Shown here: positions 2,665 to 36,129 of the stretch, piece by piece | Layout: each line of letters opens with the position of its first letter | Position numbering within the stretch: position 1 is the stretch's first letter | From: Przondovirus NAN33P6 | Reading direction: 5' to 3' (one strand) | Length of the DNA stretch: 40,525 bases | Sequence record: OZ035736.1 | Notes under the pieces: model-generated | Database searches by the model: none | Told to the model about the DNA's origin: nothing | Seen by the model: only the letters and a program-made list of their open reading frames with translations | Program-made: the position numbers and the translations under genes

Positions 2665-2687
2665 AATTAGGTAGCACTATAGGGAGA
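2665..2687 (+). promoter_or_regulatory. Phage RNAP promoter (phiOR-like, right end)
   Basis: AATTAGGTAGCACTATAGGGAGA; exact consensus 23-mer, +1 G at 2682. Confidence 0.85.
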
Positions 2688-2828: not shown

Positions 2829-2978
2829 ATGCGCTTACTGTTAACCTTACTGCGCCATAGGACTACTTGGCGGTTTCTGCTGGTACTTGCTGGTGCCCTT
2901 GGGGCTTCACTGGTTACTCAGCAACAACTCGGTGGACTGGAGACTCTCGTGTGCTCTCTACTCACTTGTAGCGATTAG
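2829..2978 (+). CDS. 19.5: T7 gp19.5 homolog (small protein of unknown function)
   Basis: 49 aa, below the ORF-track cutoff; MRLLLTLLRHRTTWRFLLVLAGALGASLVTQQQLGGLETLVCSLLTCSD resembles recalled T7 gp19.5 (ends ...SILTCSD); GGAGG RBS upstream. Confidence 0.75.
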   Translation: MRLLLTLLRHRTTWRFLLVLAGALGASLVTQQQLGGLETLVCSLLTCSD

Positions 2979-3059
2979 GGTCTTCCTGACGCGCTAGGGA
3001 TTCCGTAGTGATGCTTATCAGCATACACCACTCCATCCCTCTACAGTCAATACTTAAAG

Positions 3060-3440: not shown

Positions 3441-3506
3441 ACCATGGGCCATCCGGTGAGTCATTACTATAAGGCTATTGGGAGACCATTGTCAAATCAT
3501 CCAACC

Positions 3507-3529
3507 AATTAGGTAGCACTATAGGGAGA
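3507..3529 (+). promoter_or_regulatory. Phage RNAP promoter (phiOL-like, left end)
   Basis: AATTAGGTAGCACTATAGGGAGA exact consensus. Confidence 0.85.
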
Positions 3530-3608
3530 CACTTAAAGTGTTACTATGAGACCATCACCAATAAGAACACTATCACTATAGGTCTAACTAAAAGTTTAAC
3601 TTTGAGTG

Positions 3609-3637: not shown

Positions 3638-3743
3638 AGCAACCGTTGAGACAGACACAACGTTATCAACCACTAGCACACTTCGAGTTACTAGCTGGAT
3701 ACGGAAGGGTCTCAAGTAGCCATCAACCGGCATACGAAAATGG

Positions 3744-3772
3744 TTGACTCAACGATGCACAAGTAGTAACGT
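3744..3772 (+). promoter_or_regulatory. Candidate host sigma70 early promoter (A2-like)
   Basis: TTGACT (3744-3749), 17-bp spacer, TAACGT. Confidence 0.4.
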
Positions 3773-3861
3773 AGTAAGCAAGCAGTAACTAGCAGCACCG
3801 CTCTTTAACAATATGGATTAGTCAAAGCTGATATGTACACCATGACAATAGTGTTTAACTA

Positions 3862-3916
3862 GTGGCTACATTCGGGTCTCTGGCAAGGTACGTCCTGTCA
3901 CCCTGGGAGTAGCCAC
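3862..3916 (+). promoter_or_regulatory. Structured leader upstream of gene 0.3 (possible R0.3-type processing site)
   Basis: 8-bp inverted repeat GTGGCTAC (3862-3869) and GTAGCCAC (3909-3916) enclosing about 40 nt, just upstream of the gene 0.3 RBS. Confidence 0.3.
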
Positions 3917-3947
3917 GCTGATAACCACTAATTGAAGGATATACATC

Positions 3948-4415
3948 ATGATTTACACTAAAGAGCCAGCTAATAAAGTATTCGTATTCGTTACCGCTTA
4001 TCGTGGTCATGAGTCGCTCGAGGTTAACGAGAAGATGCTCAAGGGTCTCATTCGCACCATTAAGACCTATCCGGGTGCATATGGCAACATTCGTGATGAG
4101 CACGTGCAAGGCTGCTTTAAGGAAGATGGCATGCCTGAGGCAACACAAGAACGCACGCTCAAGGTTGAATGTACTGAGAAGCAAGCGGCAGAGCTGACGT
4201 GGTTGGCCTGTAAGACCTACTCGCAGGACGCTGTTCTGGTGGTGAACTCACAGACCCATACAGCCGCGCTATGGTCTATCGAGGATGTAGGCGAGTACCC
4301 ACAGGTCTACCCACGCTTGAAAGAGGTGTCCTTAGGTGGCACGCTGCAACAAGTGGACGCACCAAAGGGTGAATGCTATTCAATCATCGACGGGCAATAT
4401 TGGGAGGTGGTGTAA
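3948..4415 (+). CDS. 0.3: S-adenosylmethionine lyase (T3-type SAMase, anti-restriction), T3 gp0.3-like
   Basis: 155 aa; M.YTKEPA..VF......R.....EVN........RT....PG.YG......GC..E...ATQERT..V.C..KQAA.L...AC...QDAVLV.NSQTHTA.L resembles recalled T3 SAMase; unlike the T7 Ocr DNA mimic. Confidence 0.75.
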   Translation: MIYTKEPANKVFVFVTAYRGHESLEVNEKMLKGLIRTIKTYPGAYGNIRDEHVQGCFKEDGMPEATQERTLKVECTEKQAAELTWLACKTYSQDAVLVVNSQTHTAALWSIEDVGEYPQVYPRLKEVSLGGTLQQVDAPKGECYSIIDGQYWEVV

Positions 4416-4597
4416 TGGTCAAATATGGTCTCACTCAGCAGGAAATACACGAGTACCGCAGCGCCTTTAAGACGGCTTGCGAGTGCACTGCTGGCATACC
4501 TGAAGCAAAATCCGACTGGTTCTGCTACTACATGGCCCAAATGGCCCAGACCTATCGCACACGTAAGGTAATGTATGATAACCCTGTTCGTAATTAG
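4415..4597 (+). CDS. Small early protein, possibly T7 gp0.4-like
   Basis: 60 aa from the ATG overlapping the 0.3 stop (TAATG), GGAGGTGG RBS; MVKYGLTQQ...YMAQMAQ has weak resemblance to recalled T7 gp0.4 (VQYGLTAQ...AMAQ). Confidence 0.45.
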   Translation: MVKYGLTQQEIHEYRSAFKTACECTAGIPEAKSDWFCYYMAQMAQTYRTRKVMYDNPVRN

Positions 4598-4772
4598 TGT
4601 GTACGCCCTGATTGTCCTGTACTTTGTGCGGGACTTTCGTAAGGGTCTCAAGGTGCACAAAGCATCTTTCAGTTACATGAAGTGGGGCTTATTGCCTCGC
4701 TTTACTGTACGGCTACCTAATGGCCGCTTTAAGGCTAACAAAGTGGGGGTATTTTATGTTGCAACGCACTGA
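4575..4772 (+). CDS. Small hydrophobic early protein (hypothetical)
   Basis: 65 aa; N-terminal hydrophobic stretch ITLFVISVYALIVLYFV; in the gene 0.5/0.6 position; start uncertain. Confidence 0.35.
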   Translation: MITLFVISVYALIVLYFVRDFRKGLKVHKASFSYMKWGLLPRFTVRLPNGRFKANKVGVFYVATH

Positions 4773-4950
4773 GATACTGAAGGCACTATCTGAGCGGTAC
4801 CTTGCACCCGAGGGTGTACGAGTCCGGGTAATGGACTACACGGGAAACCCGCTGGCACCTGAGAAGGTAGCTTATCGCATCACCTTTACTTCGCTTGGAA
4901 GAAAGCACAGGGTAACATACTGGCCTAACACTGTAGGCTTCCAATCATAG
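4756..4950 (+). CDS. Small early protein (hypothetical, gene 0.6 position)
   Basis: 64 aa from internal ATG MLQRTEILKAL of ORF 4720..4950; precedes gene 0.7. Confidence 0.35.
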   Translation: MLQRTEILKALSERYLAPEGVRVRVMDYTGNPLAPEKVAYRITFTSLGRKHRVTYWPNTVGFQS

Positions 4951-4988
4951 CAATATCACCAATTCAATCTATACAAGGAAACAACCTA

Positions 4989-6002
4989 ATGAACTACACC
5001 GATATGCAAGCACGCTTAGACGCCATCCGTAACCTGCCAATCTGTGAACTCGACAAGCGCCAGCCGCTGCTGGTAGCACTCATCGCTGACATTGTGAACT
5101 GTGAGACGTCCGACGGTGACGATACGGACAGCGGTTGGGGTCTGGAATGTCAGGACTATTGGCAAACCCTGAAGATTAAGGCCAAGGACGCTGGGTTTAG
5201 CCTGCTGGGCAACGGTCACTTCAGCGCAGCGTTTAAGCACGAGCTGCTGCCGGGTAGGGTCATTAAGGTTGGCTTTAAGAAAGAGGACTCAGGGGCCGCC
5301 TACGTGGCTTTCTGCCGGATGAACCAAGGCCGGGTAGGGATTCCTAACGTCTATCACGTAGCGCGTCACGCTGGATGCTATACGGTGGTTCTGGATGAGC
5401 TGGAACCATGCAAGAGGCGCGACAACGAGACGCACGAGCATTACGCGGACCTAGCGAATTACTTTGTGGAGAACTCTGGTGCAGAGCTGGGAGATGTTGA
5501 CGGTGCAGAGAAGGAATTACCCTTCGTCGAGACGTGTCAAATGATTCACAAGTTCTTCTACGGGATTGCGTCTTTTGATATGCACAGCGGAAACATCATG
5601 TTCACCAAAGACGGCAAGCCAGTGATTACCGACCCGGTGTCATTCTCAGCGGACCGGGACCGTGAGCCTTTCTCACTGGAACCTGAGGAACTGCTCGCAG
5701 AGATTGAGCAGATAGCACACAATAAGATGATTGAACGTTGTAAGCGCAACAAGGCTAAGCGCGACCCGAACGGGGAGCTGCGCATCGCACGCCGTAAGGC
5801 AAACAAGGAACGTCGGGCACGTCGTAAGGCGCACGCTCGGTGGCGTAAGGAGCAGGAAAAGCGTGATGCCGAACTCTTAAAGTTTGACCTTGCGAAAGTC
5901 GAGGAGCGGGTACTGGCATGGCAGGTGGGACCCGGCCTAGCGATACAGCAAGGAAAGCCACTACCAATCGACAACTACCTTCAGGGTAGACTCATGGGCT
6001 AA
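4989..6002 (+). CDS. 0.7: Ser/Thr protein kinase with host transcription shut-off region, T7 gp0.7 homolog
   Basis: 337 aa; LPICELDKRQ, AGF.LLGNGHFSAA, RVIKVGFKKEDSGAAY.AFCRM.QGR.GIPNVY.V.RHAGCYTVVLD, FDMHSGNIMF, ITDPVSFS match recalled T7 gp0.7; basic K/R-rich C-terminus. Confidence 0.9.
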   Translation: MNYTDMQARLDAIRNLPICELDKRQPLLVALIADIVNCETSDGDDTDSGWGLECQDYWQTLKIKAKDAGFSLLGNGHFSAAFKHELLPGRVIKVGFKKEDSGAAYVAFCRMNQGRVGIPNVYHVARHAGCYTVVLDELEPCKRRDNETHEHYADLANYFVENSGAELGDVDGAEKELPFVETCQMIHKFFYGIASFDMHSGNIMFTKDGKPVITDPVSFSADRDREPFSLEPEELLAEIEQIAHNKMIERCKRNKAKRDPNGELRIARRKANKERRARRKAHARWRKEQEKRDAELLKFDLAKVEERVLAWQVGPGLAIQQGKPLPIDNYLQGRLMG

Positions 6003-6073
6003 CAAGGTGTATCTTAGGTGTCTCCAAACGGTGAGGCACCAATAGATAAACTTTATTCACAAAGAGGCACACA

Positions 6074-8794
6074 ATGAACGCATTAAACATTGCACGTAAT
6101 GACTTCTCAGAGATTGAACTAGCAGCTATCCCGTACAATATCCTCAGTGAGCACTATGGGGACAAGCTGGCACGTGAGCAGTTAGCACTGGAGCACGAGG
6201 CGTACGAGCTGGGTGAGCAGCGTTTCCTGAAGATGTTAGAACGTCAGGTGAAAGCTGGCGAGTTCGCTGACAACGTGGCCGCTAAACCGCTGGTCCTAAC
6301 GTTGCACCCGCAGCTGACCAAGCGTATTGACGACTGGAAGGAGGAGCAAGCAAACGCTCGCGGTAAGAAACCTCGCGCATACTACCCGATTAAGCACGGT
6401 GTGGCTTCTGAGTTAGCTGTTAGCATGGGCGCTGAGGTGCTCAAAGAGAAGCGCGGAGTGTCCAGTGAGGCAATCGCACTGCTAACCATCAAGGTCGTCT
6501 TAGGGACGCTCACAGACGCCTCAAAGGCCACAATCCAGCAGGTGTCCTCACAGTTAGGCAAGGCCCTTGAGGATGAGACCCGCTTCGGTCGTATCCGTGA
6601 GCAGGAAGCCGCATACTTCAAGAAGAACGTAGCGGACCAGCTGGACAAGCGAGTAGGCCACGTGTACAAGAAGGCTTTCATGCAGGTAGTCGAGGCCGAT
6701 ATGATATCCAAAGGGATGCTGGGCGGCGACAACTGGGCGAGCTGGAAAACTGACGAGCAGATGCACGTAGGGACCAAGCTGCTGGAGCTGCTTATCGAGG
6801 GGACTGGTCTGGTGGAAATGACCAAGAACAAGATGGCCGATGGCTCCGACGATGTGACCAGTATGCAGATGGTCCAGCTGGCTCCGGCGTTTGTGGAACT
6901 CCTGAGCAAACGAGCGGGCGCACTCGCGGGTATCAGTCCGATGCACCAGCCGTGCGTAGTCCCTCCGAAACCTTGGGTGGAGACTGTAGGCGGTGGCTAC
7001 TGGTCAGTCGGTCGTCGCCCTCTGGCACTGGTGCGTACCCACTCCAAGAAGGCGCTGCGCCGCTACGCAGACGTGCACATGCCCGAGGTATACAAGGCGG
7101 TCAACCTCGCGCAAAACACGCCGTGGAAGGTGAACAAGAAGGTGCTGGCGGTAGTCAACGAGATTGTCAACTGGAAGCACTGCCCGGTTGCTGACGTCCC
7201 AGCGATTGAACGTGAAGAGCTACCACCACGCCCGGACGATATTGACACCAACGAGGTGGCACGTAAGGCATGGCGCAAGGAGGCCGCAGCGGTCTACCGT
7301 AAGGACAAGGCCCGCCAGTCTCGCCGTTTGTCAATGGAGTTCATGGTCGCACAGGCCAACAAGTTCGCTAACCACAAGGCCATCTGGTTTCCTTACAACA
7401 TGGACTGGCGCGGACGTGTGTACGCTGTGAGCATGTTCAACCCGCAGGGTAACGACATGACCAAGGGTATGCTGACGCTGGCTAAGGGCAAGCCAATCGG
7501 TCTCGATGGGTTCTACTGGCTGAAGATTCATGGTGCAAACTGTGCAGGCGTCGACAAGGTTCCCTTCCCTGAGCGCATCAAGTTCATCGAAGAGAACGAG
7601 GGCAACATTCTGGCGAGTGCAGCTGACCCACTGAATAACACTTGGTGGACACAGCAGGATTCACCATTCTGTTTCTTAGCGTTTTGCTTCGAGTACGCAG
7701 GCGTTAAGCATCACGGCCTGAATTACAACTGCTCGCTGCCGCTGGCGTTCGATGGGTCATGCTCTGGGATTCAACACTTCAGCGCTATGCTCCGCGATTC
7801 CATCGGTGGTCGTGCGGTAAACCTGCTGCCATCTGATACCGTGCAGGATATCTACAAGATTGTGGCTGATAAGGTCAACGAGGTGCTCCACCAGCACGCT
7901 GTCAACGGGTCTCAGACGGTGGTCGAGCAGATTGCCGACAAGGAGACTGGCGAGTTCCGCGAGAAGGTAACGCTGGGTGAGTCCGTACTGGCTGCGCAGT
8001 GGTTGCAATACGGCGTGACCCGCAAGGTGACTAAGCGTTCGGTCATGACGTTGGCGTACGGTTCCAAAGAGTTCGGCTTCCGCCAGCAAGTTCTTGAGGA
8101 TACCATTCAGCCAGCTATTGACAACGGCGAGGGCTTGATGTTTACGCACCCTAACCAAGCGGCTGGCTACATGGCTAAGCTGATTTGGGACGCTGTGACC
8201 GTGACCGTAGTGGCCGCTGTCGAGGCGATGAACTGGCTGAAGTCTGCCGCTAAACTGCTGGCCGCTGAAGTCAAGGACAAGAAGACCAAAGAGGTGCTCC
8301 GTAAGCGCTGCGCAATCCACTGGGTAACACCAGACGGCTTCCCGGTGTGGCAGGAATACCACAAGCGTGACCAAGCGCGCCTGAAGCTGACGTTTCTGGG
8401 TCAGGCCAACGTGTTCATGACGTACAACAAAGGGGATACCAAAGAGATTGACGCACATAAGCAGGAGTCAGGAATCGCTCCTAACTTTGTGCACTCACAG
8501 GATGGTAGTCACCTGCGCATGACCGTAGTGCACGCCAACGAGGTCTACGGGATTGACTCCTTCGCGCTCATTCATGACTCCTTCGGGACCATTCCGGCAG
8601 ACGCTGGGAATCTCTTTAAGGCAGTCCGTGAGACGATGGTCAAGACCTACGAGGATAACGATGTAATCGCTGACTTTTATGACCAGTTCGCTGACCAGCT
8701 GCATGAGTCTCAACTGGACAAAATGCCTGCGGTCCCGGCCAAAGGTGACCTGAATCTGCGCGATATCTTAGAGTCTGACTTCGCGTTCGCCTAA
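6074..8794 (+). CDS. 1: Single-subunit DNA-dependent RNA polymerase, T7 gp1 family
   Basis: 906 aa; extensive near-identity to recalled T7 RNAP (AIWFPYNMDWRGRVYAVSMFNPQGNDMTKG, LPLAFDGSCSGIQHFSAMLRD, HDSFGT, C-terminal FAFA); specificity-loop region differs (RLKLTFLGQANVFMTYN versus T7 RLNLMFLGQFRLQPTIN). Confidence 0.97.
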   Translation: MNALNIARNDFSEIELAAIPYNILSEHYGDKLAREQLALEHEAYELGEQRFLKMLERQVKAGEFADNVAAKPLVLTLHPQLTKRIDDWKEEQANARGKKPRAYYPIKHGVASELAVSMGAEVLKEKRGVSSEAIALLTIKVVLGTLTDASKATIQQVSSQLGKALEDETRFGRIREQEAAYFKKNVADQLDKRVGHVYKKAFMQVVEADMISKGMLGGDNWASWKTDEQMHVGTKLLELLIEGTGLVEMTKNKMADGSDDVTSMQMVQLAPAFVELLSKRAGALAGISPMHQPCVVPPKPWVETVGGGYWSVGRRPLALVRTHSKKALRRYADVHMPEVYKAVNLAQNTPWKVNKKVLAVVNEIVNWKHCPVADVPAIEREELPPRPDDIDTNEVARKAWRKEAAAVYRKDKARQSRRLSMEFMVAQANKFANHKAIWFPYNMDWRGRVYAVSMFNPQGNDMTKGMLTLAKGKPIGLDGFYWLKIHGANCAGVDKVPFPERIKFIEENEGNILASAADPLNNTWWTQQDSPFCFLAFCFEYAGVKHHGLNYNCSLPLAFDGSCSGIQHFSAMLRDSIGGRAVNLLPSDTVQDIYKIVADKVNEVLHQHAVNGSQTVVEQIADKETGEFREKVTLGESVLAAQWLQYGVTRKVTKRSVMTLAYGSKEFGFRQQVLEDTIQPAIDNGEGLMFTHPNQAAGYMAKLIWDAVTVTVVAAVEAMNWLKSAAKLLAAEVKDKKTKEVLRKRCAIHWVTPDGFPVWQEYHKRDQARLKLTFLGQANVFMTYNKGDTKEIDAHKQESGIAPNFVHSQDGSHLRMTVVHANEVYGIDSFALIHDSFGTIPADAGNLFKAVRETMVKTYEDNDVIADFYDQFADQLHESQLDKMPAVPAKGDLNLRDILESDFAFA

Positions 8795-8804
8795 GGTCTA
8801 AGGC

Positions 8805-8827
8805 AATTAGGTAGCACTATAGGGAAC
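8805..8827 (+). promoter_or_regulatory. Phage RNAP promoter variant (upstream of ORF 8893)
   Basis: AATTAGGTAGCACTATAGGGAAC; -17..+4 consensus, +5/+6 differ; followed by hairpin GGAACCTTCG...CGAGGGTTCC at the transcript 5' end. Confidence 0.75.
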
Positions 8828-8892
8828 CTTCGAATGGCCGAGGGTTCCATTACTTAAAGTCTTAACTTAGAGAATACTTAAAGAGGCACATC

Positions 8893-9456
8893 ATGACTTA
8901 CTCAATAGTTGTAACCATCTTGTTAATCGTATTAATCGTCCTGTTCGTAAGGGCCGCCACACGCCTCGCTACCTGCGAGTACGCCCTTGAGAAGCAGGCC
9001 AAGAGTAACGAGGAGTACACAAACATCTTGCATGACAAAGTGTGTCGCCTGTCTGAAGATAAGGCAGCACTCAATAAGCAGGTGCGGTGGCTTGAGTCCA
9101 CGCTTAAGGAAGAAGAGCAGAAGGTGCGCGATGTGAATGAACTCCGAGAGCACCAGCGGGACCGCATGAAGTTCCTCCGCAAGTCACTGAAGGAAGCACA
9201 AGACGAGCTGATGATGGTCTCCGACCTGATTCACGTTAAGTTCACAGCTGTGTTGCCGGACGGTACCCACTCTAAGACGCTCTTTAAGTTAGGACTTGGG
9301 CCTTGTGGTCTGCACGTTAAGTCCCTGCGCTGGACCGAGCTGGATGACCGCTATCTGATAGACCAGCTGTGCACCAACGGTGAGCGCAAGCAGTTCGTCT
9401 ACTACAAGAGCGAAGTAGTAGGCCGCATCGAGTTCCGCCACGGTAAGTTTGAATAA
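8893..9456 (+). CDS. Hypothetical early protein with N-terminal TM helix and coiled-coil (no T7 counterpart recognised)
   Basis: 187 aa; AAGAGG RBS; hydrophobic TILLIVLIVLFV followed by a charged heptad-like region; sits between gene 1 and gene 1.1. Confidence 0.7.
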   Translation: MTYSIVVTILLIVLIVLFVRAATRLATCEYALEKQAKSNEEYTNILHDKVCRLSEDKAALNKQVRWLESTLKEEEQKVRDVNELREHQRDRMKFLRKSLKEAQDELMMVSDLIHVKFTAVLPDGTHSKTLFKLGLGPCGLHVKSLRWTELDDRYLIDQLCTNGERKQFVYYKSEVVGRIEFRHGKFE

Positions 9457-9475
9457 GGTAGCACTATAGGAACAT
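9453..9475 (+). promoter_or_regulatory. Degenerate phage promoter-like element (phi1.1-like)
   Basis: AATAAGGTAGCACTATAGGAACA; keeps the GGTAGCACTATAGG core but diverges at -14 and +3..+6. Confidence 0.45.
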
Positions 9476-9515
9476 ACTCAAGGTCATCGTCTGGTGGCCT
9501 TCATGAATGTCCCTT
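9470..9515 (+). promoter_or_regulatory. Putative RNase III processing hairpin (R1.1-like)
   Basis: ACTCAAGGTCATCGTCTGGTGGCCTTCATGAATG, close to the recalled T7 R1.1 substrate. Confidence 0.6.
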
Positions 9516-9539
9516 ACTATCGCAATCAGGAGTAACATC

Positions 9540-9716
9540 ATGTACCAGAACACAATCAACTTCGAGCGCAACCGTGAACGTCAGCAGACCGAGGGCTACA
9601 TCCCTAAGGGCCGCAAGCTGAACAAGACAAAGCGTGGTGGCGGTGTGAAAGGTTCTTTCCGTAACGCCAAGGGTGACAGCGTTGTTAACCAAGAGAAATA
9701 CTTCGTAGGAGCGTAA
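9540..9716 (+). CDS. 1.1: T7 gp1.1 homolog (small basic protein)
   Basis: 58 aa from the internal ATG of ORF 9507..9716; KGRKLNKTKR matches recalled T7 gp1.1. Confidence 0.7.
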   Translation: MYQNTINFERNRERQQTEGYIPKGRKLNKTKRGGGVKGSFRNAKGDSVVNQEKYFVGA

Positions 9717-9719
9717 CAA

Positions 9720-9986
9720 ATGGCCGAGCAAACTAAATGGTTGTTTGACGGTAGCACTTCGCAGTGGTCACGATTGGGTGCCACAGAGCGCAGGTTGATG
9801 GACGAGACGGGACTACGTGTAATCATGACGTACCGCCCATTCAACCGCACAGTGCTATTCTCTGTGTATGAACCTCGCCCGGATTACGACGAGGTGCTCG
9901 TGGAGAAGACCTTCAGTCGCTGGTCGATTGACTCAGCGTCAGACTGGCTGGCAAAACTCACAGCCGACTACTCAAGTTGGAAATGA
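9720..9986 (+). CDS. 1.2: Probable gp1.2 (inhibitor of host dGTPase) by position and size
   Basis: 88 aa; same position and length class as T7 gp1.2 and ends in WK like recalled gp1.2; similarity otherwise weak. Confidence 0.55.
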   Translation: MAEQTKWLFDGSTSQWSRLGATERRLMDETGLRVIMTYRPFNRTVLFSVYEPRPDYDEVLVEKTFSRWSIDSASDWLAKLTADYSSWK

Positions 9987-10007
9987 TTAGGTAGCACTAT
10001 AGGCAGA
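9985..10007 (+). promoter_or_regulatory. Phage RNAP promoter variant (phi1.3-like)
   Basis: TGATTAGGTAGCACTATAGGCAG; +3 C differs from consensus. Confidence 0.6.
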
Positions 10008-10048
10008 CTCAAGGTCATCGGATTCCGGTGGCCTTTATGATTGCTTAT
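10005..10048 (+). promoter_or_regulatory. Putative RNase III processing hairpin (R1.3-like)
   Basis: ACTCAAGGTCATCGGATTCCGGTGGCCTTTATGATTG. Confidence 0.6.
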
Positions 10049-10086
10049 TGCACACTAAATGAACACTACACTTCGGAGACATCATC

Positions 10087-11145
10087 ATGATGAACATTAA
10101 GACTAATCCATATAAGGCCGTTTCATACGTACGCTCTGCTATCGAGAAGGCGCTGGAGACTTCCGGTTACCTCATCGCAGACACTAAGCACGATGGGGTT
10201 CGCGGGAACATTTGCGTAGACAACACGGCCAACGCAGCGTGGCTCAGCCGGGTCTCCAAGACCATTCCGGCGCTTGAGCACCTCAACGGTTTCGACCAGC
10301 GCTGGCAGAAGTTACTGAAAGATGACCGCTGGATTTTCCCTGATGGCTTTATGCTTGATGGCGAACTCATGGTAAAGGGCGTAGACTTCAACACCGGGTC
10401 TGGCCTGCTGCGTACCAAGTGGCTCAAGAAATACAACATGGAGTACCACAACGTGTCAGTAACACCAGACATGCTGAAGCCTCGCAAGGTTGGCGTTGCT
10501 AAGCGTGTTCGTACCGAGTTTAGACTATCCACCGCGCACCTAAAAGTTGTCCTCTACGATATCATTCCGCTTGACATTATCGAGTCAGGTGATGACTACA
10601 ACGTGATGACCCTCCTCCGCCTTGAGCACGTCAAGGTAGCCTTACCAGTCCTGCAAGACCACTTCCCCGAAGTCGAGTGGTGCCTCTCGGAGTCCCATGA
10701 AGTTTACGACATGGACGAACTCGATGCGCTTTACCGACAGAAACGAGAAGAAGGTCATGAAGGTCTGGTGGTTAAGGACCCTCGCGGTATCTATAAGCGC
10801 GGTAAGAAGTCCGGCTGGTGGAAGCTGAAGCCAGAGAACGAGGCTGACGGTGTAGTTGTGGGACTCAACTGGGGAACTCCCGGTCTTGCCAACGAGGGCA
10901 AGGTGATTGGCTTCGAGGTTCTCCTTGAGTCAGGTCGCGTGGTCTCCGCTAACAACATCTCTCAGGCACTTATGGAGGAGTTCACCTCTGCGGTACTAAC
11001 TCAGGAACTGAACGGAGACACTCAGGCGTATATTGGCTGGGCGTGCCAAATCAAGTACATGGAGGAAACTCCAGATGGCTCCCTGCGTCACCCATCGTTC
11101 GACAAATGGCGTGGCACCGAGGCTGACCCTACCACCAAGATGTAA
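10087..11145 (+). CDS. 1.3: ATP-dependent DNA ligase, T7 gp1.3 homolog
   Basis: 352 aa; MMNIKTNP.KAVS.V.SAI.KAL...GYLIA..K.DGVRGNICVDNTAN..WLSRVSKTIPALEHLNGFD, EGLVVKDP, SLRHPSF match recalled T7 ligase (active-site K in KHDGVRG). Confidence 0.95.
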   Translation: MMNIKTNPYKAVSYVRSAIEKALETSGYLIADTKHDGVRGNICVDNTANAAWLSRVSKTIPALEHLNGFDQRWQKLLKDDRWIFPDGFMLDGELMVKGVDFNTGSGLLRTKWLKKYNMEYHNVSVTPDMLKPRKVGVAKRVRTEFRLSTAHLKVVLYDIIPLDIIESGDDYNVMTLLRLEHVKVALPVLQDHFPEVEWCLSESHEVYDMDELDALYRQKREEGHEGLVVKDPRGIYKRGKKSGWWKLKPENEADGVVVGLNWGTPGLANEGKVIGFEVLLESGRVVSANNISQALMEEFTSAVLTQELNGDTQAYIGWACQIKYMEETPDGSLRHPSFDKWRGTEADPTTKM

Positions 11146-11166
11146 TTAGGTAGCACTATAGGAGAC
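11144..11166 (+). promoter_or_regulatory. Phage RNAP promoter variant
   Basis: AATTAGGTAGCACTATAGGAGAC; initiating run is GG rather than GGG. Confidence 0.65.
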
Positions 11167-11172
11167 AACAAC

Positions 11173-11259
11173 ATGTCTATCAATCTGATTCTAATCATCG
11201 TGTTCATCCTCGCGGCTATCGTGTGGTCAATGAATGACGAGCCACCTAAAGGAGCATAA
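11173..11259 (+). CDS. Small hydrophobic peptide (28 aa), hypothetical
   Basis: MSINLILIIVFILAAIVWSMNDEPPKGA; immediately downstream of promoter 11144; below ORF-track cutoff. Confidence 0.35.
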   Translation: MSINLILIIVFILAAIVWSMNDEPPKGA

Positions 11260-11261
11260 CC

Positions 11262-11525
11262 ATGCGCTTACACTTCAATAAATCCAACGGTATCTTCTCG
11301 GTTCGCCGGGAGGACCGCAGCACTGTAGCAGCCTCCGAGCGCCACGGTAAGATTCCACGTATCGGCGACACCTTCGAGCTGTCACCTCGTGTGCACATCT
11401 TGGTTACTCGCGGTCTCTACGAATTGGCTCAGACTAAGAGCCGTCCTTTCGTACCCGTTGTGGTAACCAAGTGGCCACGCCTTCGTCTGTTCTGGGAGCG
11501 CATCAAGGAGGTGGTCAATGACTGA
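11262..11525 (+). CDS. 1.6: T7 gp1.6 homolog
   Basis: 87 aa; F.K.NG.F.VRR.DRS.V.ASE.HGK.PRIGD.F.LSP.V.ILVTRGLY.LA..K.RPF matches recalled T7 gp1.6. Confidence 0.7.
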   Translation: MRLHFNKSNGIFSVRREDRSTVAASERHGKIPRIGDTFELSPRVHILVTRGLYELAQTKSRPFVPVVVTKWPRLRLFWERIKEVVND

Positions 11526-12315: not shown

Positions 12316-12316
12316 T

Positions 12317-12339
12317 CATTAGGTAGCACTATAGGGACA
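12317..12339 (+). promoter_or_regulatory. Phage RNAP promoter variant (phi2.5-like)
   Basis: TCATTAGGTAGCACTATAGGGAC; followed by 5' hairpin GGGACACAGGTTGTCCC. Confidence 0.7.
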
Positions 12340-13984: not shown

Positions 13985-14007
13985 CATTAGGTAGCACTAC
14001 AGGGAGA
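13985..14007 (+). promoter_or_regulatory. Phage RNAP promoter variant (phi4-like)
   Basis: ACATTAGGTAGCACTACAGGGAGAC; C at -2 (TACA instead of TATA). Confidence 0.6.
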
Positions 14008-20702: not shown

Positions 20703-20725
20703 AATTAGGTAGCACTATAGGGAAG
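20703..20725 (+). promoter_or_regulatory. Phage RNAP promoter (phi6.5-like) embedded in a hairpin
   Basis: AATTAGGTAGCACTATAGGGAAG; flanked by inverted repeat GGGCACT (20695-20701) and AGTGCCC (20724-20730). Confidence 0.75.
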
Positions 20726-21527: not shown

Positions 21528-23135
21528 ATGGCAGAAGTTAAACTCGAAGGCTTCGCAGAGGAGGGAGCCAAGGCGGTATACGACCGTCTGAAGAACGACC
21601 GACAGCCTTACGAGACACGAGCAGAGTCCTGTGCGCAGTACACGATTCCCTCACTGTTCCCTAAGGATTCCGATAACGCATCGACCGATTACACGACTCC
21701 GTGGCAATCCGTAGGTGCTCGCGGGCTGAACAACCTAGCGTCCAAGCTGATGCTGGCCCTGTTCCCGATGCAATCATGGATGAAGTTGACCATTAGCGAA
21801 TACGAAGCGAAGAACCTTCTGGGTGACGCCGAGGGTCTCGCTAAGGTCGATGAGGGCCTCTCAATGGTAGAGCGCATCATCATGAACTACATCGAGTCCA
21901 ACAGTTATCGAGTGACTCTCTTTGAGTGCTTGAAGCAACTGTGTGTGGCTGGCAACGCGCTGCTTTACTTACCGGAGCCTGAGGGTTATACCCCGATGAA
22001 GCTCTATCGGCTGAACTCGTATGTGGTCCAGCGAGACGCTTTCGGTAACGTGCTCCAGATTGTCACACTCGACAAGATTGCGTTCAATGCGCTCCCTGAA
22101 GACGTTCGTGGTCAGGTGGAAGCGGCTCAAGGTGAGCAGAAGGAAGACGCTGAGATTGACGTCTACACCCACGTGTACCTGAACGAAGCCGGGGATGGCT
22201 ACTCGAAGTACGAAGAGGTTGCCGAAGAGGTAGTTCCGGGCAGTGAGGCCGAGTACCCGCTCGAAGAGTGTCCGTACATTCCGGTCCGCATGGTCCGCAT
22301 CGACGGTGAATCCTACGGTCGTTCCTACGTGGAAGAGTATCTGGGCGACCTCAAGTCCCTAGAGAACCTGCAAGAGTCCATCGTTAAGATGGCGATGATT
22401 ACCGCTAAGGTTATCGGTCTGGTAGACCCGGCAGGTATCACTCAGGTTCGCCGACTCACAGCAGCACAGTCTGGTGCGTTCGTACCGGGCCGTAAGCAGG
22501 ACATTGAGTTCCTCCAGCTGGAGAAGTCCGGCGACTTTACCGTAGCGAAGAACGTAAGCGACACCATTGAGGCGCGCCTCTCGTATGCCTTTATGCTCAA
22601 CAGTGCGGTACAACGTACAGGCGAGCGAGTCACAGCCGAAGAGATTCGGTACGTGGCGTCAGAGCTGGAAGATACCCTAGGTGGTGTCTACTCGATTCTC
22701 TCACAGGAACTCCAGCTGCCTCTGGTAAGAGTGCTCTTGAAGCAACTACAAGCCACGCAGCAAATCCCGGAGTTACCTAAAGAGGCCGTCGAGCCAACTA
22801 TCAGCACTGGCCTTGAGGCTATCGGACGTGGGCAGGACCTTGACAAGCTGGAGCGCTGCATTGCTGCATGGTCAGCTCTTAAGTCCCTCGAAGGCGATGA
22901 TGACCTCAACTTGGCTAACCTCAAGTTACGCATCGCTAACGCTATCGGACTCGACACTGCTGGTATGCTTCTCACTCAGGAGCAGAAGAATGCCCTTATG
23001 GCACAGCAAGGCGCTCAGATTGCTACACAGCAAGGGGCCGCAGCGTTGGGTCAGGGGATGGCCGCACAGGCTACTGCAAGTCCTGAAGCGATGGCCGCTG
23101 CGGCTGATTCAGTCGGTATGCAACCGGGCATGTAA
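21528..23135 (+). CDS. 8: Portal (head-tail connector) protein, T7 gp8 homolog
   Basis: 535 aa; long identical runs to recalled T7 gp8 (YTIPSLFPKDSDNASTDY.TPWQ.VGARGLNNLASKLMLALFPMQ, VQRTGERVTAEEIRYVASELEDTLGGVYSILSQELQLPLVRVLLKQLQATQQIPELPKEAVEPTISTGLEAIGRGQDLDKLERC). Confidence 0.97.
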   Translation: MAEVKLEGFAEEGAKAVYDRLKNDRQPYETRAESCAQYTIPSLFPKDSDNASTDYTTPWQSVGARGLNNLASKLMLALFPMQSWMKLTISEYEAKNLLGDAEGLAKVDEGLSMVERIIMNYIESNSYRVTLFECLKQLCVAGNALLYLPEPEGYTPMKLYRLNSYVVQRDAFGNVLQIVTLDKIAFNALPEDVRGQVEAAQGEQKEDAEIDVYTHVYLNEAGDGYSKYEEVAEEVVPGSEAEYPLEECPYIPVRMVRIDGESYGRSYVEEYLGDLKSLENLQESIVKMAMITAKVIGLVDPAGITQVRRLTAAQSGAFVPGRKQDIEFLQLEKSGDFTVAKNVSDTIEARLSYAFMLNSAVQRTGERVTAEEIRYVASELEDTLGGVYSILSQELQLPLVRVLLKQLQATQQIPELPKEAVEPTISTGLEAIGRGQDLDKLERCIAAWSALKSLEGDDDLNLANLKLRIANAIGLDTAGMLLTQEQKNALMAQQGAQIATQQGAAALGQGMAAQATASPEAMAAAADSVGMQPGM

Positions 23136-23156
23136 TTAGGTAGCACTATAGGGAGA
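23134..23156 (+). promoter_or_regulatory. Phage RNAP promoter (phi9-like)
   Basis: AATTAGGTAGCACTATAGGGAGA exact consensus. Confidence 0.85.
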
Positions 23157-23250: not shown

Positions 23251-24207
23251 ATGGCTGGCGAATCTAACGCAGACGTATACGCATCCTTCGGTGTCAACAG
23301 TGCTGTACTGACTGGTAGTACACCTGAGGAGCACCAAGAAAACATGTTGGCTCTTGATGTTGCTGCCCGTGATGGCGATGATGCAATCGAGCTGAACACC
23401 AACAGTGATGACCTGTATGGCTCCGATGTGGACCCGTTCGGTGAACCTGAAGAGGGCCGAATGCAGGTCCGTATCTCCGCTGACGGTTCAGACGAACAGG
23501 AAGGCGAAGAGGGTCAGGGTGATGAAGAACAGCAGGGCGATGAAGAGAGTCAGTCGGAGGAAGTAACCGACGATGGTGAACCTGAAGAGTTCAAGCCTAT
23601 TGGCGAAACTCCGGCTGACATCAACGAAGCCTCTCAGCAGCTGGAAGAACACGAAGCTGGCTTTAACGACATGGTTGCCACTGCAATAGAACGCGGTCTC
23701 TCACAGGATGCTGTGACCCGTATTCAGCAGGAGTACCAGAACGAAGACAGTTTGTCCGATGAGTCTTACCGAGAGCTGGCCGAGGCGGGCTACAGTAAGG
23801 CGTTCGTCGATGCGTACATTCGTGGTCAGGAAGCTCTGGTCAACCAGTACGTAGAGAAAGTGATGGACTTCGTGGGAGGCCGTGAGCGCTTCCAGCAGGT
23901 CTACAGCCACATGCAGACCAATAACCATGAGGGTGCCGAGGCGCTCATCAAGGCTTTTGAGTCTCGTGATGTAGCCACCATGAAGACGATTCTGAACCTA
24001 GCGGGACAGTCTCGTGATAAAACCTTTGGTAAGAAAGCTGAACGCTCTATTGCCAAGCGTGCTACCCCAGCGAAACCTGTGGCCCGTAAAGCTGAAGGCT
24101 TCGAGTCTCAGGCTGAGATGATTAAAGCTATGTCAGACCCACGTTACCGCACCGACTCCAAGTACCGTCGTGAAGTGGAACAGAAGGTTATCGACTCTAA
24201 GTTTTAA
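23251..24207 (+). CDS. 9: Capsid assembly (scaffolding) protein, T7 gp9 homolog
   Basis: 318 aa from ATG 23251 (AAGGAG RBS); SNADVYASFGVNSAV, ENMLALDVAARDGDDAIEL, acidic middle, C-terminal MIKAMSDPRYRTD..YRR.VEQKVIDS match T7 gp9. Confidence 0.93.
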   Translation: MAGESNADVYASFGVNSAVLTGSTPEEHQENMLALDVAARDGDDAIELNTNSDDLYGSDVDPFGEPEEGRMQVRISADGSDEQEGEEGQGDEEQQGDEESQSEEVTDDGEPEEFKPIGETPADINEASQQLEEHEAGFNDMVATAIERGLSQDAVTRIQQEYQNEDSLSDESYRELAEAGYSKAFVDAYIRGQEALVNQYVEKVMDFVGGRERFQQVYSHMQTNNHEGAEALIKAFESRDVATMKTILNLAGQSRDKTFGKKAERSIAKRATPAKPVARKAEGFESQAEMIKAMSDPRYRTDSKYRREVEQKVIDSKF

Positions 24208-24228
24208 TTAGGTAGCACTATAGGGAGA
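24206..24228 (+). promoter_or_regulatory. Phage RNAP promoter (phi10-like)
   Basis: AATTAGGTAGCACTATAGGGAGA exact consensus; followed by an unusually long leader of about 210 nt before gene 10. Confidence 0.85.
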
Positions 24229-28821: not shown

Positions 28822-28844
28822 AATTAGGTAGCACTATAGGGAGA
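28822..28844 (+). promoter_or_regulatory. Phage RNAP promoter (phi13-like)
   Basis: AATTAGGTAGCACTATAGGGAGA exact consensus. Confidence 0.85.
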
Positions 28845-35100: not shown

Positions 35101-36108
35101 TGGACCAAGATGTTGAATGGTACAGCCAACTACATTCTGGACACTGCCCGTCAAGGTGTGCTCGGTGATGTGGCTGGTGCGGCCCTAGGCGGTAAGGGTT
35201 CCAAGTTTGGTAAAGAGAACTTCCTCAAAGCTGCCTCTATCAGTCCTGAGCAGTGGAAGGGCATCAAGCAACTCTTTGTCGACCACGCGACTCGTGACGC
35301 TAACGGCCAGTTCACCATCAAGGACAAGAAGGCTTTCAGTCAGGACCCGAGAGCGATGGACCTGTGGCGTCTTGCCGATAAGGTTGCCGACGAGACCATG
35401 CTACGGCCTCACAAGGTATCACAGCAGGATTCCAAGGCGTACGGTGCTGGTGTCAAGATGGCTATGCAGTTCAAGAACTTCACCATCAAGTCACTCAACG
35501 CTAAGTTCATTCGGTCCTTCTATGAGGGCTACAAGAACAACCGCGCTATCGACATGGCATTGACCCACATCCTGTCACTCGGTATAGCCGGGACTTACTA
35601 TGCGATGCAGGCCCACGTGAAGGCTTACGGTCTCCAAGAGTCTCAACGTAAGGACTACCTGAAGAAAGCCCTGAACCCGACCATGCTGGTGTACGCAGCG
35701 TTGACTCGAAGTTCCCACATTGGTGCCCCGCTGTCCATCGTCTCGATGATTGCAGGTGCCGCTGGGTTCCAAGATGCAAACATGCTGCGCTCCACCATCT
35801 TGCCTAAGGAGGAACAGTTCCAGAAGAAAGGCGGGGCGTCCAAAGGTCGGGCTGAGTCGAGTAACCTTGCGGGTAACCTAGGGTCTCAGGTCCCGGCTCT
35901 TGGTTACGTAGGGAACGTCATTGCGACCGCTAAGAACGCCTACGGTGTTGTTACAGCACCCAATAAGCCGACTGAGCGCGACTACATGACTGGCCTGATG
36001 AACTCCACTAAGGAGCTTGTGCCGAACGACCCGCTGACCCAACAGCTCATAATGAAAATCTATGAGGCTAACGGAGTAACCATCAAACAGCAGCCTAAAC
36101 CCAACTAA
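32143..36108 (+). CDS. 16: Internal virion (core) protein D with N-terminal lytic transglycosylase domain, T7 gp16 homolog
   Basis: 1321 aa; PSDYDG.FQKAAD..GVSYDLLRK, TGP.G.MQFT (transglycosylase motif region), KAALAYNQGEG, long conserved central and C-terminal runs (ARSPWTK.LNGT.NY.LD.ARQG, DPLTQQL..KIYEANGV). Confidence 0.95.
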   Translation: MSYDKSKPSDYDGIFQKAADSHGVSYDLLRKLSFNESSFNPKAVSKTGPKGIMQFTRNTARAMGLNVTDGDDDGRYNPELAIDAGAKLLASLVKKYNGDELKAALAYNQGEGPAGAPQLQAYDKGDFGSISEEGRNYMRKLLDVAKSPNSGALEAFGGITPKGKGIPAEDAFKGIAKAGKVGTELPESHGFDVEGVAQEAPNTPYAKDFWEKTGTTLDEYNARSTFFGFGDAAEAQIQNSTLGVAFRAARADDGYDVFKDTMTPTRWNSYVPSKEDLQKLRDSGLPPSYYGVVTGGDGENWDALIKLAKDNFEADQRAAEAGTGAKLAAGIVGAGVDPLSYAPLVGVAGKGLKVVNKALRVGAQAGALSVASEGIRTSVAGGEAHYADAALGGLLFGAGMSALSDAVAAGIRKARGVDSVNEFAGPALRMEARETAINTGGHDTSTLPPENFSFEQGHRGVPFADHPTEEGAVVLANGSILSDTNPLNPRTQRDFAEIDPERAAPGIRLGGFTEIGLKTLGSKDAGVRAIAQDLVRSPTGMQSGSSGKFGATASDIHERLHATDQRMYNQLYDAVDRAMKDPEFSVGEQKMSRRAIRQEVYKRAALAIERPELQADLTKGEREVMDLLKEHFDTKRELMEQPGIFGNANAVSIFPGSRHKGTYVPNVYDRGAKELMMQKLGGPEGLQQAIAQSWLTSYRVRPEVKARVDEYLMELNGYKSVDQVTPEVVQKHAIDKAYGISHTEDFTASSVIDDNITGLVGIENNSFLEARNMFDSDIPVTLPDGSTFSVNDLRDFDMARIIPAYDRRVNGDISIMGGSGKTTKQLKDEIMALDKRAERKGQLKGEVEALKDTVKILTGRARRNNDTAFETAMRSLNDLAFFAKNFYMGPQNLTEIAGMLAKGNVKAMLHGIPTLRDLATRTSPVSGSELRELHGALFGKELDQLIRPGREDIVQRIREASDTSGAMASVIGTIKFGTQELSARSPWTKMLNGTANYILDTARQGVLGDVAGAALGGKGSKFGKENFLKAASISPEQWKGIKQLFVDHATRDANGQFTIKDKKAFSQDPRAMDLWRLADKVADETMLRPHKVSQQDSKAYGAGVKMAMQFKNFTIKSLNAKFIRSFYEGYKNNRAIDMALTHILSLGIAGTYYAMQAHVKAYGLQESQRKDYLKKALNPTMLVYAALTRSSHIGAPLSIVSMIAGAAGFQDANMLRSTILPKEEQFQKKGGASKGRAESSNLAGNLGSQVPALGYVGNVIATAKNAYGVVTAPNKPTERDYMTGLMNSTKELVPNDPLTQQLIMKIYEANGVTIKQQPKPN

Positions 36109-36129
36109 TTAGGTAGCACTATAGGGAGA
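36107..36129 (+). promoter_or_regulatory. Phage RNAP promoter (phi17-like)
   Basis: AATTAGGTAGCACTATAGGGAGA exact consensus; transcript starts with GGGAGACC...GGTTTCCC inverted repeat. Confidence 0.85.

What the first reader, a model, noticed from the sequence alone, without database searches (positions are those of the whole stretch)
8360..8450. RNA polymerase specificity loop carries K/N/F where T7 has N748/R756/Q758
Aligning the C-terminal 136 residues with T7 RNAP (the catalytic HDSFGT lines up exactly) puts this protein's RLKLTFLGQANVFMTYN opposite T7 RLNLMFLGQFRLQPTIN. The residues T7 uses to read positions -11 to -8 are therefore K, N and F here. That is consistent with the altered -12..-8 promoter block and gives a concrete protein-DNA specificity pair to test.
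Basis: partly seen in the sequence, partly recalled or inferred. Interest (0 to 1): 0.55.

Follow-up and report, generated by a model that had tools for sequence, protein, structure and literature searches.

The report
K11-like polymerase loop, second promoter class
This is the promoter-reading hairpin of a Klebsiella T7-group phage RNA polymerase, in a natural variant (Lys/Asn/Phe) that goes with its own promoter sequence (…GGTAG…) instead of the one used by the characterised K11 and KP32 enzymes; it is real and tidy but an ordinary kind of thing.

Summary
Window 8360-8450 encodes HKRDQARLKLTFLGQANVFMTYNKGDTKEI of a 906-aa T7-type RNA polymerase (6074-8794). It aligns without gaps to T7 RNAP, so K771/N779/F781 face N748/R756/Q758.

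The window is a whole Przondovirus (K11-like Klebsiella phage) genome. It has 13 phage promoters, AATTAGGTAGCACTATAGGGAGA, one at each position annotated in K11.

K11 has K/N/K and promoters GG[G/A]C[A/C]. So only F781, plus co-fixed loop residues, separates this enzyme from K11.

Across 52 Przondovirus polymerases there are two loop classes. All nine fixed amino-acid differences lie in residues 763-790. F-class genomes carry GGTA[G/T] at 203 of 208 sites; K-class genomes carry GG[G/A/T]C[A/C] at 192 of 194.

Over about 15 kb, the only class-associated sites are the loop, the -10..-8 triplet of six promoters, and a few sites adjacent to them. The rest is recombined between classes.

The three-residue/five-base code is published (Zhu et al. 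2025), and 233 GenBank phages carry this loop type. I found no text describing the KNF/GGTAG pair. Specificity and orthogonality are inferred, not measured. This is a new member of a known kind, of moderate interest.

The parts
6074..8794 (+). Gene 1: T7-type single-subunit RNA polymerase, 906 aa, K11-like
   Evidence: ORF. Pfam PF00940 at 373 bits and PF14700 at 75 bits. Full-length alignment to T7 RNAP 1cez, E = 0. 14 aa differences from K11 RNAP.
8357..8452 (+). Specificity loop (residues 762-793 = T7 739-770), F-class: YHKRDQARLKLTFLGQANVFMTYNKGDTKEID
   Evidence: Ungapped alignment to T7. All 9 fixed amino-acid differences between the two Przondovirus loop classes lie at 763-790. It is an island of between-class nucleotide divergence, 0.17-0.24 against about 0.05-0.09 elsewhere.
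8378..8380 (+). R769 (= T7 R746), conserved; inferred reader of the conserved C:G pair at -7
   Evidence: Invariant in alignment A1. The T7 R746:G-7 contact is cited from PMC8874028. -7 is C in all listed promoters; this is not independent, because the search pattern required CACTA at -7..-3.
8384..8386 (+). K771 (= T7 N748); shared with K11
   Evidence: A Lys at this position paired with G at -11 is one of the three commonest natural combinations at that residue-base pair in Zhu et al. 2025. -11 is G in all 13 window promoters.
8390..8392 (+). T773 (= T7 M750); Val in all K-class enzymes; same face of the hairpin strand as R769 and K771 (inferred from beta-strand alternation)
   Evidence: Fixed difference, with all three codon positions changed.
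8408..8410 (+). N779 (= T7 R756); shared with K11 and with the K1F-type clade
   Evidence: The K1F-type clade also pairs N at this position with A at -9.
8414..8416 (+). F781 (= T7 Q758); Lys in K11/KP32; the only one of the three key positions that differs between classes
   Evidence: TTC versus AAG, all three bases fixed between classes.
8366..8371 (+). R765-D766 (= T7 P742-I743); Q-N/T in the K-class
   Evidence: Fixed differences.
8429..8443 (+). K786-G-D788-T789-K790 (= T7 T763..S767); T-G-K-D-S in the K-class. Charge is reversed at the T7 K765 position.
   Evidence: Fixed differences. T7 K765 is reported to stabilise promoter binding in simulations.
2665..2687 (+). phage promoter phiOR homologue, AATTAGGTAGCACTATAGGGAGA
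   Evidence: Positional match to the K11 annotation.
3507..3529 (+). phage promoter phiOL homologue
8805..8827 (+). phage promoter phi1.05 homologue; -10..-8 at 8812-8814 is class-associated
9452..9474 (+). phage promoter phi1.1 homologue (AATAAGGTAG...)
9985..10007 (+). phage promoter phi1.3 homologue
11144..11166 (+). phage promoter phi1.6 homologue
12317..12339 (+). phage promoter phi2.5 homologue
13985..14007 (+). phage promoter before gene 4 (CACTACAGG variant)
20703..20725 (+). phage promoter phi6.5 homologue
23134..23156 (+). phage promoter phi9 homologue
24206..24228 (+). phage promoter phi10 homologue
28822..28844 (+). phage promoter phi13 homologue
36107..36129 (+). phage promoter phi17 homologue

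Best explanation
The segment encodes the promoter-specificity beta-hairpin of the phage's own single-subunit RNA polymerase. [quoted passage not shown] This enzyme belongs to a second specificity class within the K11-like genus Przondovirus, with key residues K771/N779/F781 ('KNF'). Its cognate promoter is AATTAGGTAGCACTATAGGGAGA. The characterised K11 and KP32 enzymes are 'KNK' and use AATTAGG[G/A]C[A/C]CACTATAGGGAGA.

Shown here:
- the residue correspondence with T7;
- the 13 cognate-type promoters in the window;
- near-perfect covariation of loop class with the -10..-8 triplet;
- no other part of the polymerase, or of about 15 kb around it, differing consistently between the classes.

Inferred for individual residues:
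- R769 reads the conserved -7 pair.
- K771 reads G at -11 (shared with K11).
- N779 pairs with A at -9, as in the K1F-type clade.
- The K-to-F change at 781 switches the -8 preference. The template base at -8 is T or G (keto) in the K-class, which suits a Lys donor. It is C or A (amino) in the F-class, which suits an uncharged aromatic side chain.
- The co-fixed residues T773, R765/D766 and K786/D788/T789/K790 help to reposition the hairpin so that T at -10 and A at -9 are preferred.
For: Alignment: ungapped to T7 1cez with offset 23; no indel among five T7-group loops.

Promoters: 13 sites against 0 expected by chance, one at each K11-annotated promoter position.

Window versus K11 RNAP: 14 aa differences, 9 of them within 28 residues (763-790); Fisher p = 1e-11. 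In that stretch there are 9 nonsynonymous and 5 synonymous-only codons, against 5 and 140 in the rest of the gene.

52 Przondovirus RNAPs: 27 F-class and 25 K-class. All 9 fixed amino-acid differences lie in 763-790.

Promoter blocks: F-class 203/208 GGTA[G/T]; K-class 192/194 GG[G/A/T]C[A/C]. Position frequencies are given.

Association scan over window 3674-18691: only the loop island 8356-8491, six promoter triplets and a few adjacent sites differ by class.

Recombination: trees from RNAP DNA outside the island need 3-10 class changes, against 1 for the island and about 17 for random labels.

Identical loops: five other loci with an identical 38-aa loop, and phage Speegle, all have GGTAG promoters.

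Literature: T7 748/756/758 are the dominant determinants for -12..-8, and KNK-GGGCC is active and orthogonal in a T7 background (PMC11880802). KP32 RNAP uses AATTAGGGCACACTATAG in vivo (PMC13580328). T7 contacts are R756:G-9, Q758:A-8 and R746:G-7 (PMC8874028).
Against: No activity or binding measurement exists for a KNF enzyme, so specificity and orthogonality are inferred from covariation only.

Only one of the three key residues differs from K11, yet three promoter bases differ. The published three-residue code does not by itself predict this.

L006 carries N779D with unchanged promoters, which argues that N779 may not be critical or that the variant is an assembly error.

Three stray non-cognate promoters exist in otherwise consistent genomes (L008, L012, L038). 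Some cross-recognition, or tolerance of a dead promoter, is therefore possible.

The promoter tallies used a search pattern that fixes -7..-3 (CACTA), restricts -2..+2, and requires G at -11 and 3 of 5 matches at -17..-13. Very divergent sites would be missed.
Confidence: 0.85

Rival explanations
1. Same kind of element, different residue attribution. F781 is not the main determinant. The switch is made chiefly by the co-fixed non-'key' residues (T773, R765/D766, K786/D788/T789/K790), which tilt or re-anchor the hairpin, and F781 merely removes a Lys contact.
For: Three bases change but only one key residue does. Eight other loop positions are fixed between classes in the 52-enzyme sample. The T7 K765 equivalent is charge-reversed (K788 in K11, D/E in the F-class), and K765 contributes to promoter stabilisation in T7 simulations. 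In directed evolution of T7, the non-key loop residue P759 matters.
Against: DCA and mutagenesis in a T7 background indicate that 748/756/758 dominate specificity in most T7-like enzymes. The amino/keto partition of the -8 base between classes fits a Lys-to-Phe change at the residue that contacts -8 in T7. H763 occurs in a K-class enzyme (TUN1) with K-type promoters, so at least one 'fixed' flank residue is irrelevant.
Confidence: 0.25
2. The two loop types are functionally equivalent. Both enzymes tolerate both promoter triplets, and the association reflects shared descent or hitch-hiking rather than specificity.
For: Stray non-cognate promoters persist in three genomes. K-class promoters are already degenerate at -10 and -8. 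On non-loop DNA the nearest neighbour is usually of the same class, 50 of 51.
Against: Association is confined to the loop and to the 3-bp triplets at six separate promoters spread over about 5 kb. The sequence between them shows no class-associated sites, apart from a few adjacent to the promoters. Trees from DNA outside the island need 3-10 class changes. Descent alone would leave linked neutral differences everywhere. The ratio of nonsynonymous to synonymous-only codons is 9:5 in the loop and 5:140 elsewhere.
Confidence: 0.07
3. The loop differences serve another role of this hairpin, such as the RNA exit channel in the elongation complex, termination or pausing, or a partner protein. The promoter triplet would then be read elsewhere in the enzyme.
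For: [quoted passage not shown]
Against: There is no other fixed difference anywhere in the 906-aa polymerase that could read the triplet. No class-associated site was found in the neighbouring genes scanned, including the lysozyme and gp2 regions.
Confidence: 0.03

Closest known systems
Klebsiella phage K11 RNA polymerase and its promoters (NC_011043; Dietz et al. 1990 and Han et al. 2002, as cited)
   Same: Same genus. 906 aa with 892 identical residues. Same K and N at the T7 748 and 756 positions. The same 13 promoter positions. Identical promoter sequence at -17..-11 and -7..+6.
   Different: K781 instead of F781, plus 8 further loop substitutions. Promoter -10..-8 is [G/A]C[A/C] instead of TAG.
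KP32 RNA polymerase (RNA 2026, PMC13580328)
   Same: Przondovirus enzyme with the roughly 20-aa N-terminal insertion. Its AlphaFold model superposes on T7 1QLN with the specificity loop in place.
   Different: Experimentally validated on AATTAGGGCACACTATAG-type promoters, which are K-class. L044 is a 41,119-bp contig that I take to be KP32 because the length equals what I recall for KP32 (not checked with the tools). It is K-class.
T7 RNA polymerase specificity loop (residues 739-770; N748, R756, Q758, R746; PDB 1cez/1qln)
   Same: Ungapped homologous hairpin. R746 and the LGQ tip are conserved. Promoter architecture is the same, with an identical -7..-1 CACTATA.
   Different: K/N/F instead of N/R/Q. 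The promoter block is GGTAG instead of CGACT. No T7 promoter lies within 3 mismatches anywhere in the window.
Engineered T7 variant KNK with promoter GGGCC, and the residue/base network of Zhu et al. 2025 (PMC11880802)
   Same: Same framework: three loop residues against five promoter bases, mined from phage genomes. K at position 748 pairs with G at -11.
   Different: KNF and GGTAG do not appear in the main text. The supplement listing the 24 natural combinations is not held, so I cannot tell whether this pair is catalogued there. Phe at a base-reading position cannot form the hydrogen bonds that their structure-based (RosettaDNA) scoring relied on.
SP6 promoter (ATTTAGGTGACACTATAGAAG)
   Same: Natural SP6 sites such as AATTAGGTGACACTATAGAA differ from the window's promoter only at -9 and -8 upstream of +1.
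   Different: SP6 RNAP is 30% identical in this region. Its aligned residues are R/K/S, and it has a 3-residue deletion after the hairpin. The resemblance is on the DNA side only.

Membership tests
T7-type single-subunit RNA polymerase (Pfam PF00940 + PF14700) | Both Pfam domains score above the curated cut-off | tested here: met
   PF00940 at 373 bits (cut-off 22) and PF14700 at 74.8 bits (cut-off 30.1).
T7-type single-subunit RNA polymerase (Pfam PF00940 + PF14700) | Collinear full-length alignment to T7 RNAP, including the catalytic HDSFGT (T7 D812) motif | tested here: met
   1-906 against 1-883 of 1cez, E = 0. HDSFGT 834-839 aligns with T7 811-816.
T7 specificity loop (beta-hairpin 739-770) | Same length and register between the WQEY and DAHKQ anchors, with R746 and G753 conserved | tested here: met
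   32 residues lie between the anchors in both proteins, with no gap. R769 and G776 are invariant.
T7 specificity loop (beta-hairpin 739-770) | Hairpin inserted in the promoter major groove, making base-specific contacts at -11..-7 | not testable with these tools
   No protein-DNA modelling is available here. This is inferred from the T7 structure (contacts quoted) and from the KP32 AlphaFold/1QLN superposition reported in PMC13580328.
T7 specificity loop (beta-hairpin 739-770) | Loop sequence covaries with promoter positions -12..-8 among relatives | tested here: met
   Two classes. 203/208 and 192/194 sites are concordant, and association is confined to the loop and the promoter triplets.
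K11/KP32 specificity class (KNK; AATTAGG[G/A]C[A/C]CACTATAGGGAGA) | Lys at the T7 Q758 position and the K11 loop sequence | tested here: not met
   F781, plus 8 other loop substitutions relative to K11.
K11/KP32 specificity class (KNK; AATTAGG[G/A]C[A/C]CACTATAGGGAGA) | Genome promoters with C at -9 and A/C at -8 | tested here: not met
   All 13 window promoters have T-A-G at -10..-8.
K11/KP32 specificity class (KNK; AATTAGG[G/A]C[A/C]CACTATAGGGAGA) | Przondovirus genome organisation and a near-identical polymerase outside the loop | tested here: met
   RNAP DNA is 95-96% identical to Przondovirus records. There are 5 aa differences from K11 outside the loop. All 13 promoter positions are shared.
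SP6 specificity class | SP6-type loop and polymerase | tested here: not met
   30% identity, R/K/S at the aligned positions, and a 3-aa deletion.

The most novel reading that the evidence does not exclude
Przondovirus populations maintain two mutually incompatible 'transcription types'. Each type is a coadapted complex of one 28-residue polymerase loop and a 3-bp triplet in each of about 13 dispersed promoters. Epistatic selection holds the complex together while the rest of the genome recombines freely between types. This would be a natural, minimal example of a distributed hybrid-incompatibility system in a virus. It would also supply a ready-made orthogonal partner to the K11/KP32 enzymes, with an unusual non-hydrogen-bonding Phe at a base-reading position.
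Probability: 0.35. Interest if true: 0.65.

Novelty: new member of a known kind. Interest (0 to 1): 0.42.

Why it matters
If the KNF enzyme is as selective as the covariation suggests, it is a natural polymerase/promoter pair that differs from the already commercialised K11 type and the newly characterised KP32 type by at most nine residues and three base pairs. That is a compact system for dissecting how the hairpin reads -10 to -8, including how a phenylalanine substitutes for a hydrogen-bonding side chain. It could also serve as an extra orthogonal channel for in vitro transcription or genetic circuits.

For phage evolution, the pattern shows selection keeping a polymerase and all of its promoters matched despite recombination. 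The signature is sharp islands at the loop and at each promoter triplet, with almost nothing in between. This bears on the old question of how a phage can change promoter specificity when many promoters must change together.

It does not reveal a new type of mechanism.

Tried and rejected
- Offset alignment: rejected. There is no gap between conserved anchors in pairwise or multiple alignments.
- T7-type promoters in the window: none within 3 mismatches.
- Exact K11 consensus: it matched only at exactly 3 mismatches, which exposed the TAG triplet.
- Import of the F-type loop from another genus: not supported. After the K11 class (86.6%), the next best loop in 50,697 phage records is 75% (Dickeya phage Dagda, K/H/Q).
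- An intermediate loop: one search reported one record in the 90-95% identity band. I could not retrieve it by E-value cut-offs. The nearest thing found was TUN1, a K-class loop with H763 and K-type promoters.
- The search for homologous proteins with the C-terminal 207 aa returned only 46 proteins, mostly fragments. It gave no new loop with Phe at this position outside Przondovirus.
- Literature: full-text searches for GGTAGCACTATAGG and AGGTAGCACTA found no relevant paper. Rong et al. 1998 (PMC18451) is not held. The supplements of Zhu et al. 2025 are not held.
- Structure prediction was not run. The tool returns no side-chain or DNA geometry, and the register question was already settled by sequence.
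Full report
**What is at the coordinates.** Window 8360-8450 on the + strand translates to HKRDQARLKLTFLGQANVFMTYNKGDTKEI. It lies in a 906-aa ORF, 6074..8794. The ORF carries both Pfam domains of single-subunit phage RNA polymerases and aligns end to end with T7 RNAP chains of the PDB at E = 0. From residue 728 to the C terminus the alignment has no gap and a constant offset of 23. A multiple alignment with K11, T7, a T3-type, a K1F-type and SP6 shows no indel in the hairpin for the first five. R769 and G776 are invariant in all six, and SP6 has a 3-residue deletion after the hairpin.

**What the window is.** The polymerase gene is 95-96% identical in DNA to hundreds of Klebsiella phages of the genus Przondovirus. 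The first 25 kb match such genomes at about 94-95% over 95-97% of their length. The window is a circularly permuted whole genome of a K11-like phage.

**The window's promoters.** It contains 13 copies of TTAGGTAGCACTATAGG-type sites, all on the + strand, where shuffles give none. There is one at each position where the K11 record annotates a phage promoter, from phiOL through phi1.05, phi1.1, phi1.3, phi1.6, phi2.5, the promoter before gene 4, phi6.5, phi9, phi10, phi13 and phi17 to phiOR. The consensus is AATTAGGTAGCACTATAGGGAGA. No T7 promoter lies within three mismatches.

**The comparison that matters is K11, not T7.** K11 RNAP differs from the window's enzyme at only 14 of 906 residues. 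Nine of these fall in residues 763-790: H763R, R765Q, D766N, T773V, F781K, K786T, D788K, T789D and K790S (Fisher p = 1e-11).
- K11 therefore has K/N/K where the window has K/N/F.
- K11's annotated promoters read AATTAGG[G/A]C[A/C]CACTATAGGGAGA.
- The two promoter types differ only at -10, -9 and -8: TAG against [G/A]C[A/C].
- KP32 RNAP, recently characterised, was validated in vivo on K11-type promoters (PMC13580328).
- Both experimentally studied Przondovirus enzymes are therefore of the other class.

**Covariation.** From IMG/VR I obtained 80 loci with a related polymerase and up to 10 kb of flank on each side. Together with K11, a further Przondovirus contig and the window, this gave 52 full-length Przondovirus enzymes.
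- They fall into two loop classes, 27 F-class and 25 K-class.
- All nine positions where the classes share no amino acid lie in 763-790. There is no such position anywhere else in the protein.
- In F-class loci, 203 of 208 promoter sites carry GGTA[G/T] at -12..-8. In K-class loci, 192 of 194 carry GG[G/A/T]C[A/C].
- F-class frequencies: -10 T 99%, -9 A 99%, -8 G 88% / T 11%. K-class frequencies: -10 A 57% / G 38% / T 5%, -9 C 99%, -8 A 75% / C 24%. All other positions from -17 to +6 are alike.
- The site search fixed -7..-3 (CACTA), restricted -2..+2, and required G at -11 and 3 of 5 matches at -17..-13. The tallies are informative only for the remaining positions.
- Five other loci with a 38-aa loop identical to the window's, and phage Speegle, all have GGTAG promoters.
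- In GenBank phages, 233 records carry the F-type loop at 95% identity or more over 67 aa, and about 150 carry the K11 type. The window's type is in fact the commoner one.

**Selection, not just descent.**
- Mean nucleotide divergence between classes equals that within classes (about 0.04-0.10) along the whole gene, except codons ~745-805, where it reaches 0.17-0.24.
- Neighbour-joining trees from RNAP DNA outside this island need 3-10 changes of class, against 1 for the island and about 17 for random labels. Nearest neighbours nevertheless tend to be of the same class, 50 of 51. The classes recombine, but not to complete mixing.
- In alignments covering window 3674-18691, few columns have allele frequencies that differ by 0.8 or more between classes. 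These are the loop island (8356-8491), the -10/-9/-8 triplet of each of six promoters, and a few sites immediately next to three of those promoters. The coordinates printed for the downstream block are 3 too high.
- The 300 bp between the loop and phi1.05 show no association at all.
- Within the loop, window versus K11 shows 9 nonsynonymous and 5 synonymous-only codons. The rest of the gene shows 5 and 140.
- This is the signature of a polymerase loop and its dispersed promoters being kept matched by selection in a recombining population.
- Three stray non-cognate promoters were seen: L008 and L038 at the promoter before gene 4, and L012 at phi2.5. Both classes occur among contigs of one metagenome sample.

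**How it most likely works.**
- Established for T7: the loop (739-770) lies in the major groove, with R746:G-7, R756:G-9 and Q758:A-8 on the template strand, and N748 at -11/-10 (quoted in PMC8874028, and PMC11880802).
- Zhu et al. 2025 showed by direct-coupling analysis and 137 assays that positions 748/756/758 against -12..-8 dominate specificity in most T7-like enzymes. Lys at 748 goes with G at -11, and a KNK variant of T7 is active and orthogonal on GGGCC.
- Inferred for the window: R769 reads the conserved -7 pair and K771 reads G at -11, both unchanged from K11.
- Inferred: N779 pairs with A at -9, as in the K1F-type clade, whose loop has N at that position and whose promoters read ...AACTATCACTATAGG.
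- Inferred: the Lys-to-Phe change at 781 changes the preference at -8. The degeneracy fits this. The K-class allows A or C, so the template base is T or G, both keto and both able to accept a hydrogen bond from Lys. The F-class allows G or T, so the template base is C or A, both amino.
- Three bases change but only one key residue does. The other co-fixed residues probably contribute: T773 (in phase with R769 and K771 on the strand), R765/D766, and the 786-790 segment with its charge reversal at the T7 K765 position.
- TUN1 has H763 in a K-class loop with K-type promoters, so position 763 is not a determinant.
- L006 has N779D with unchanged promoters, which is a caution about N779.

**Comparison with what is known.**
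- The element is a member of the T7 specificity-loop family by every sequence criterion tested.
- It is not a member of the K11/KP32 specificity class, because both defining features, the Lys at 781 and the C at -9, were tested and not met.
- On the DNA side its promoter is two bases (-9, -8) from natural SP6 sites such as AATTAGGTGACACTATAGAA. The SP6 enzyme is only 30% identical here, with unrelated loop residues.
- The general principle of loop/promoter covariation, mined from phage genomes and used for engineering, is published (PMC11880802).
- I found no text mentioning the GGTAG promoter or a KNF combination. The supplement that lists the 24 natural residue combinations is not held, so the pair may already be catalogued there.

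**Verdict.** The thing itself is a further natural member of a well understood kind. The useful additions are three. The comparator is K11. F781 plus up to seven co-fixed loop residues (763 excluded by TUN1) and three base pairs define the switch. The population data show that the match is actively maintained. Specificity, orthogonality and residue-base contacts remain to be measured.

Noticed in passing
window 3563-3585, 2731-2753 and 3457-3480: Three promoter-core look-alikes lack the -17..-8 recognition block. AACACTATCACTATAGGTCTAAC lies 57 bp downstream of phiOL. TAGTTATGCACTACAGGTCTCCT lies 66 bp downstream of phiOR. GGTGAGTCATTACTATAAGGCTAT lies 50 bp upstream of phiOL. The same elements sit at the same places in both loop classes (L012, L038, L083, L084). 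The phiOL+57 element has ACTAT at -12..-8, the block used by K1F-type phage promoters. Function unknown.
   Followed up: partly
L008 ~11032, L038 ~10696, L012 ~16248: These are stray non-cognate promoters. An F-class genome has a K-type site (GGGCA), and a K-class genome has an F-type site (GGTAG), both at the promoter before gene 4. An F-class genome has GGACA at phi2.5. They are natural mismatch 'experiments' and direct traces of inter-class recombination.
   Followed up: partly
window 3507-3529 versus phiOL of F-class relatives: In most F-class relatives phiOL reads GGTAT at -12..-8 (24 sites in 27 loci). In the window all 13 promoters, including phiOL, read GGTAG.
   Followed up: no
L006 (RNAP loop), also L003, L011, L048: There are rare loop variants within the F-class: N779D at the residue opposite T7 R756, A778S, Q777H and L770M. 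Their GGTAG promoters are unchanged. They may be tolerated variants or metagenome assembly errors.
   Followed up: no
window ~6386-6454 (RNAP residues ~105-127): There is an insertion of about 20 residues relative to T7 RNAP in the N-terminal domain. [quoted passage not shown]
   Followed up: no
window 1-3500: The window is a circular permutation of the genome. The phiOR homologue (2665) precedes the phiOL homologue (3507), so the terminal-repeat region must lie between them. The polymerase gene starts about 3 kb later than in K11.
   Followed up: no
L064 198-430; L076, L077, L081 left ends: The left ends of unrelated T7-group phages carry tandem arrays. L064 has a 21-bp unit (AGGAACCACTGAGTATCATTG) about 11 times. 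The K1F-type loci have ACCTACAGTC-containing arrays.
   Followed up: no
window 9977-9985, 11168-11184, 12355-12367: A few class-associated sites lie just outside promoter triplets: -25 to -17 of phi1.3, +8 and +24 of phi1.6, and +22 to +34 of phi2.5. They are probably hitch-hiking with the triplets, though the -17 difference at phi1.3 (G versus A) lies inside the promoter.
   Followed up: no
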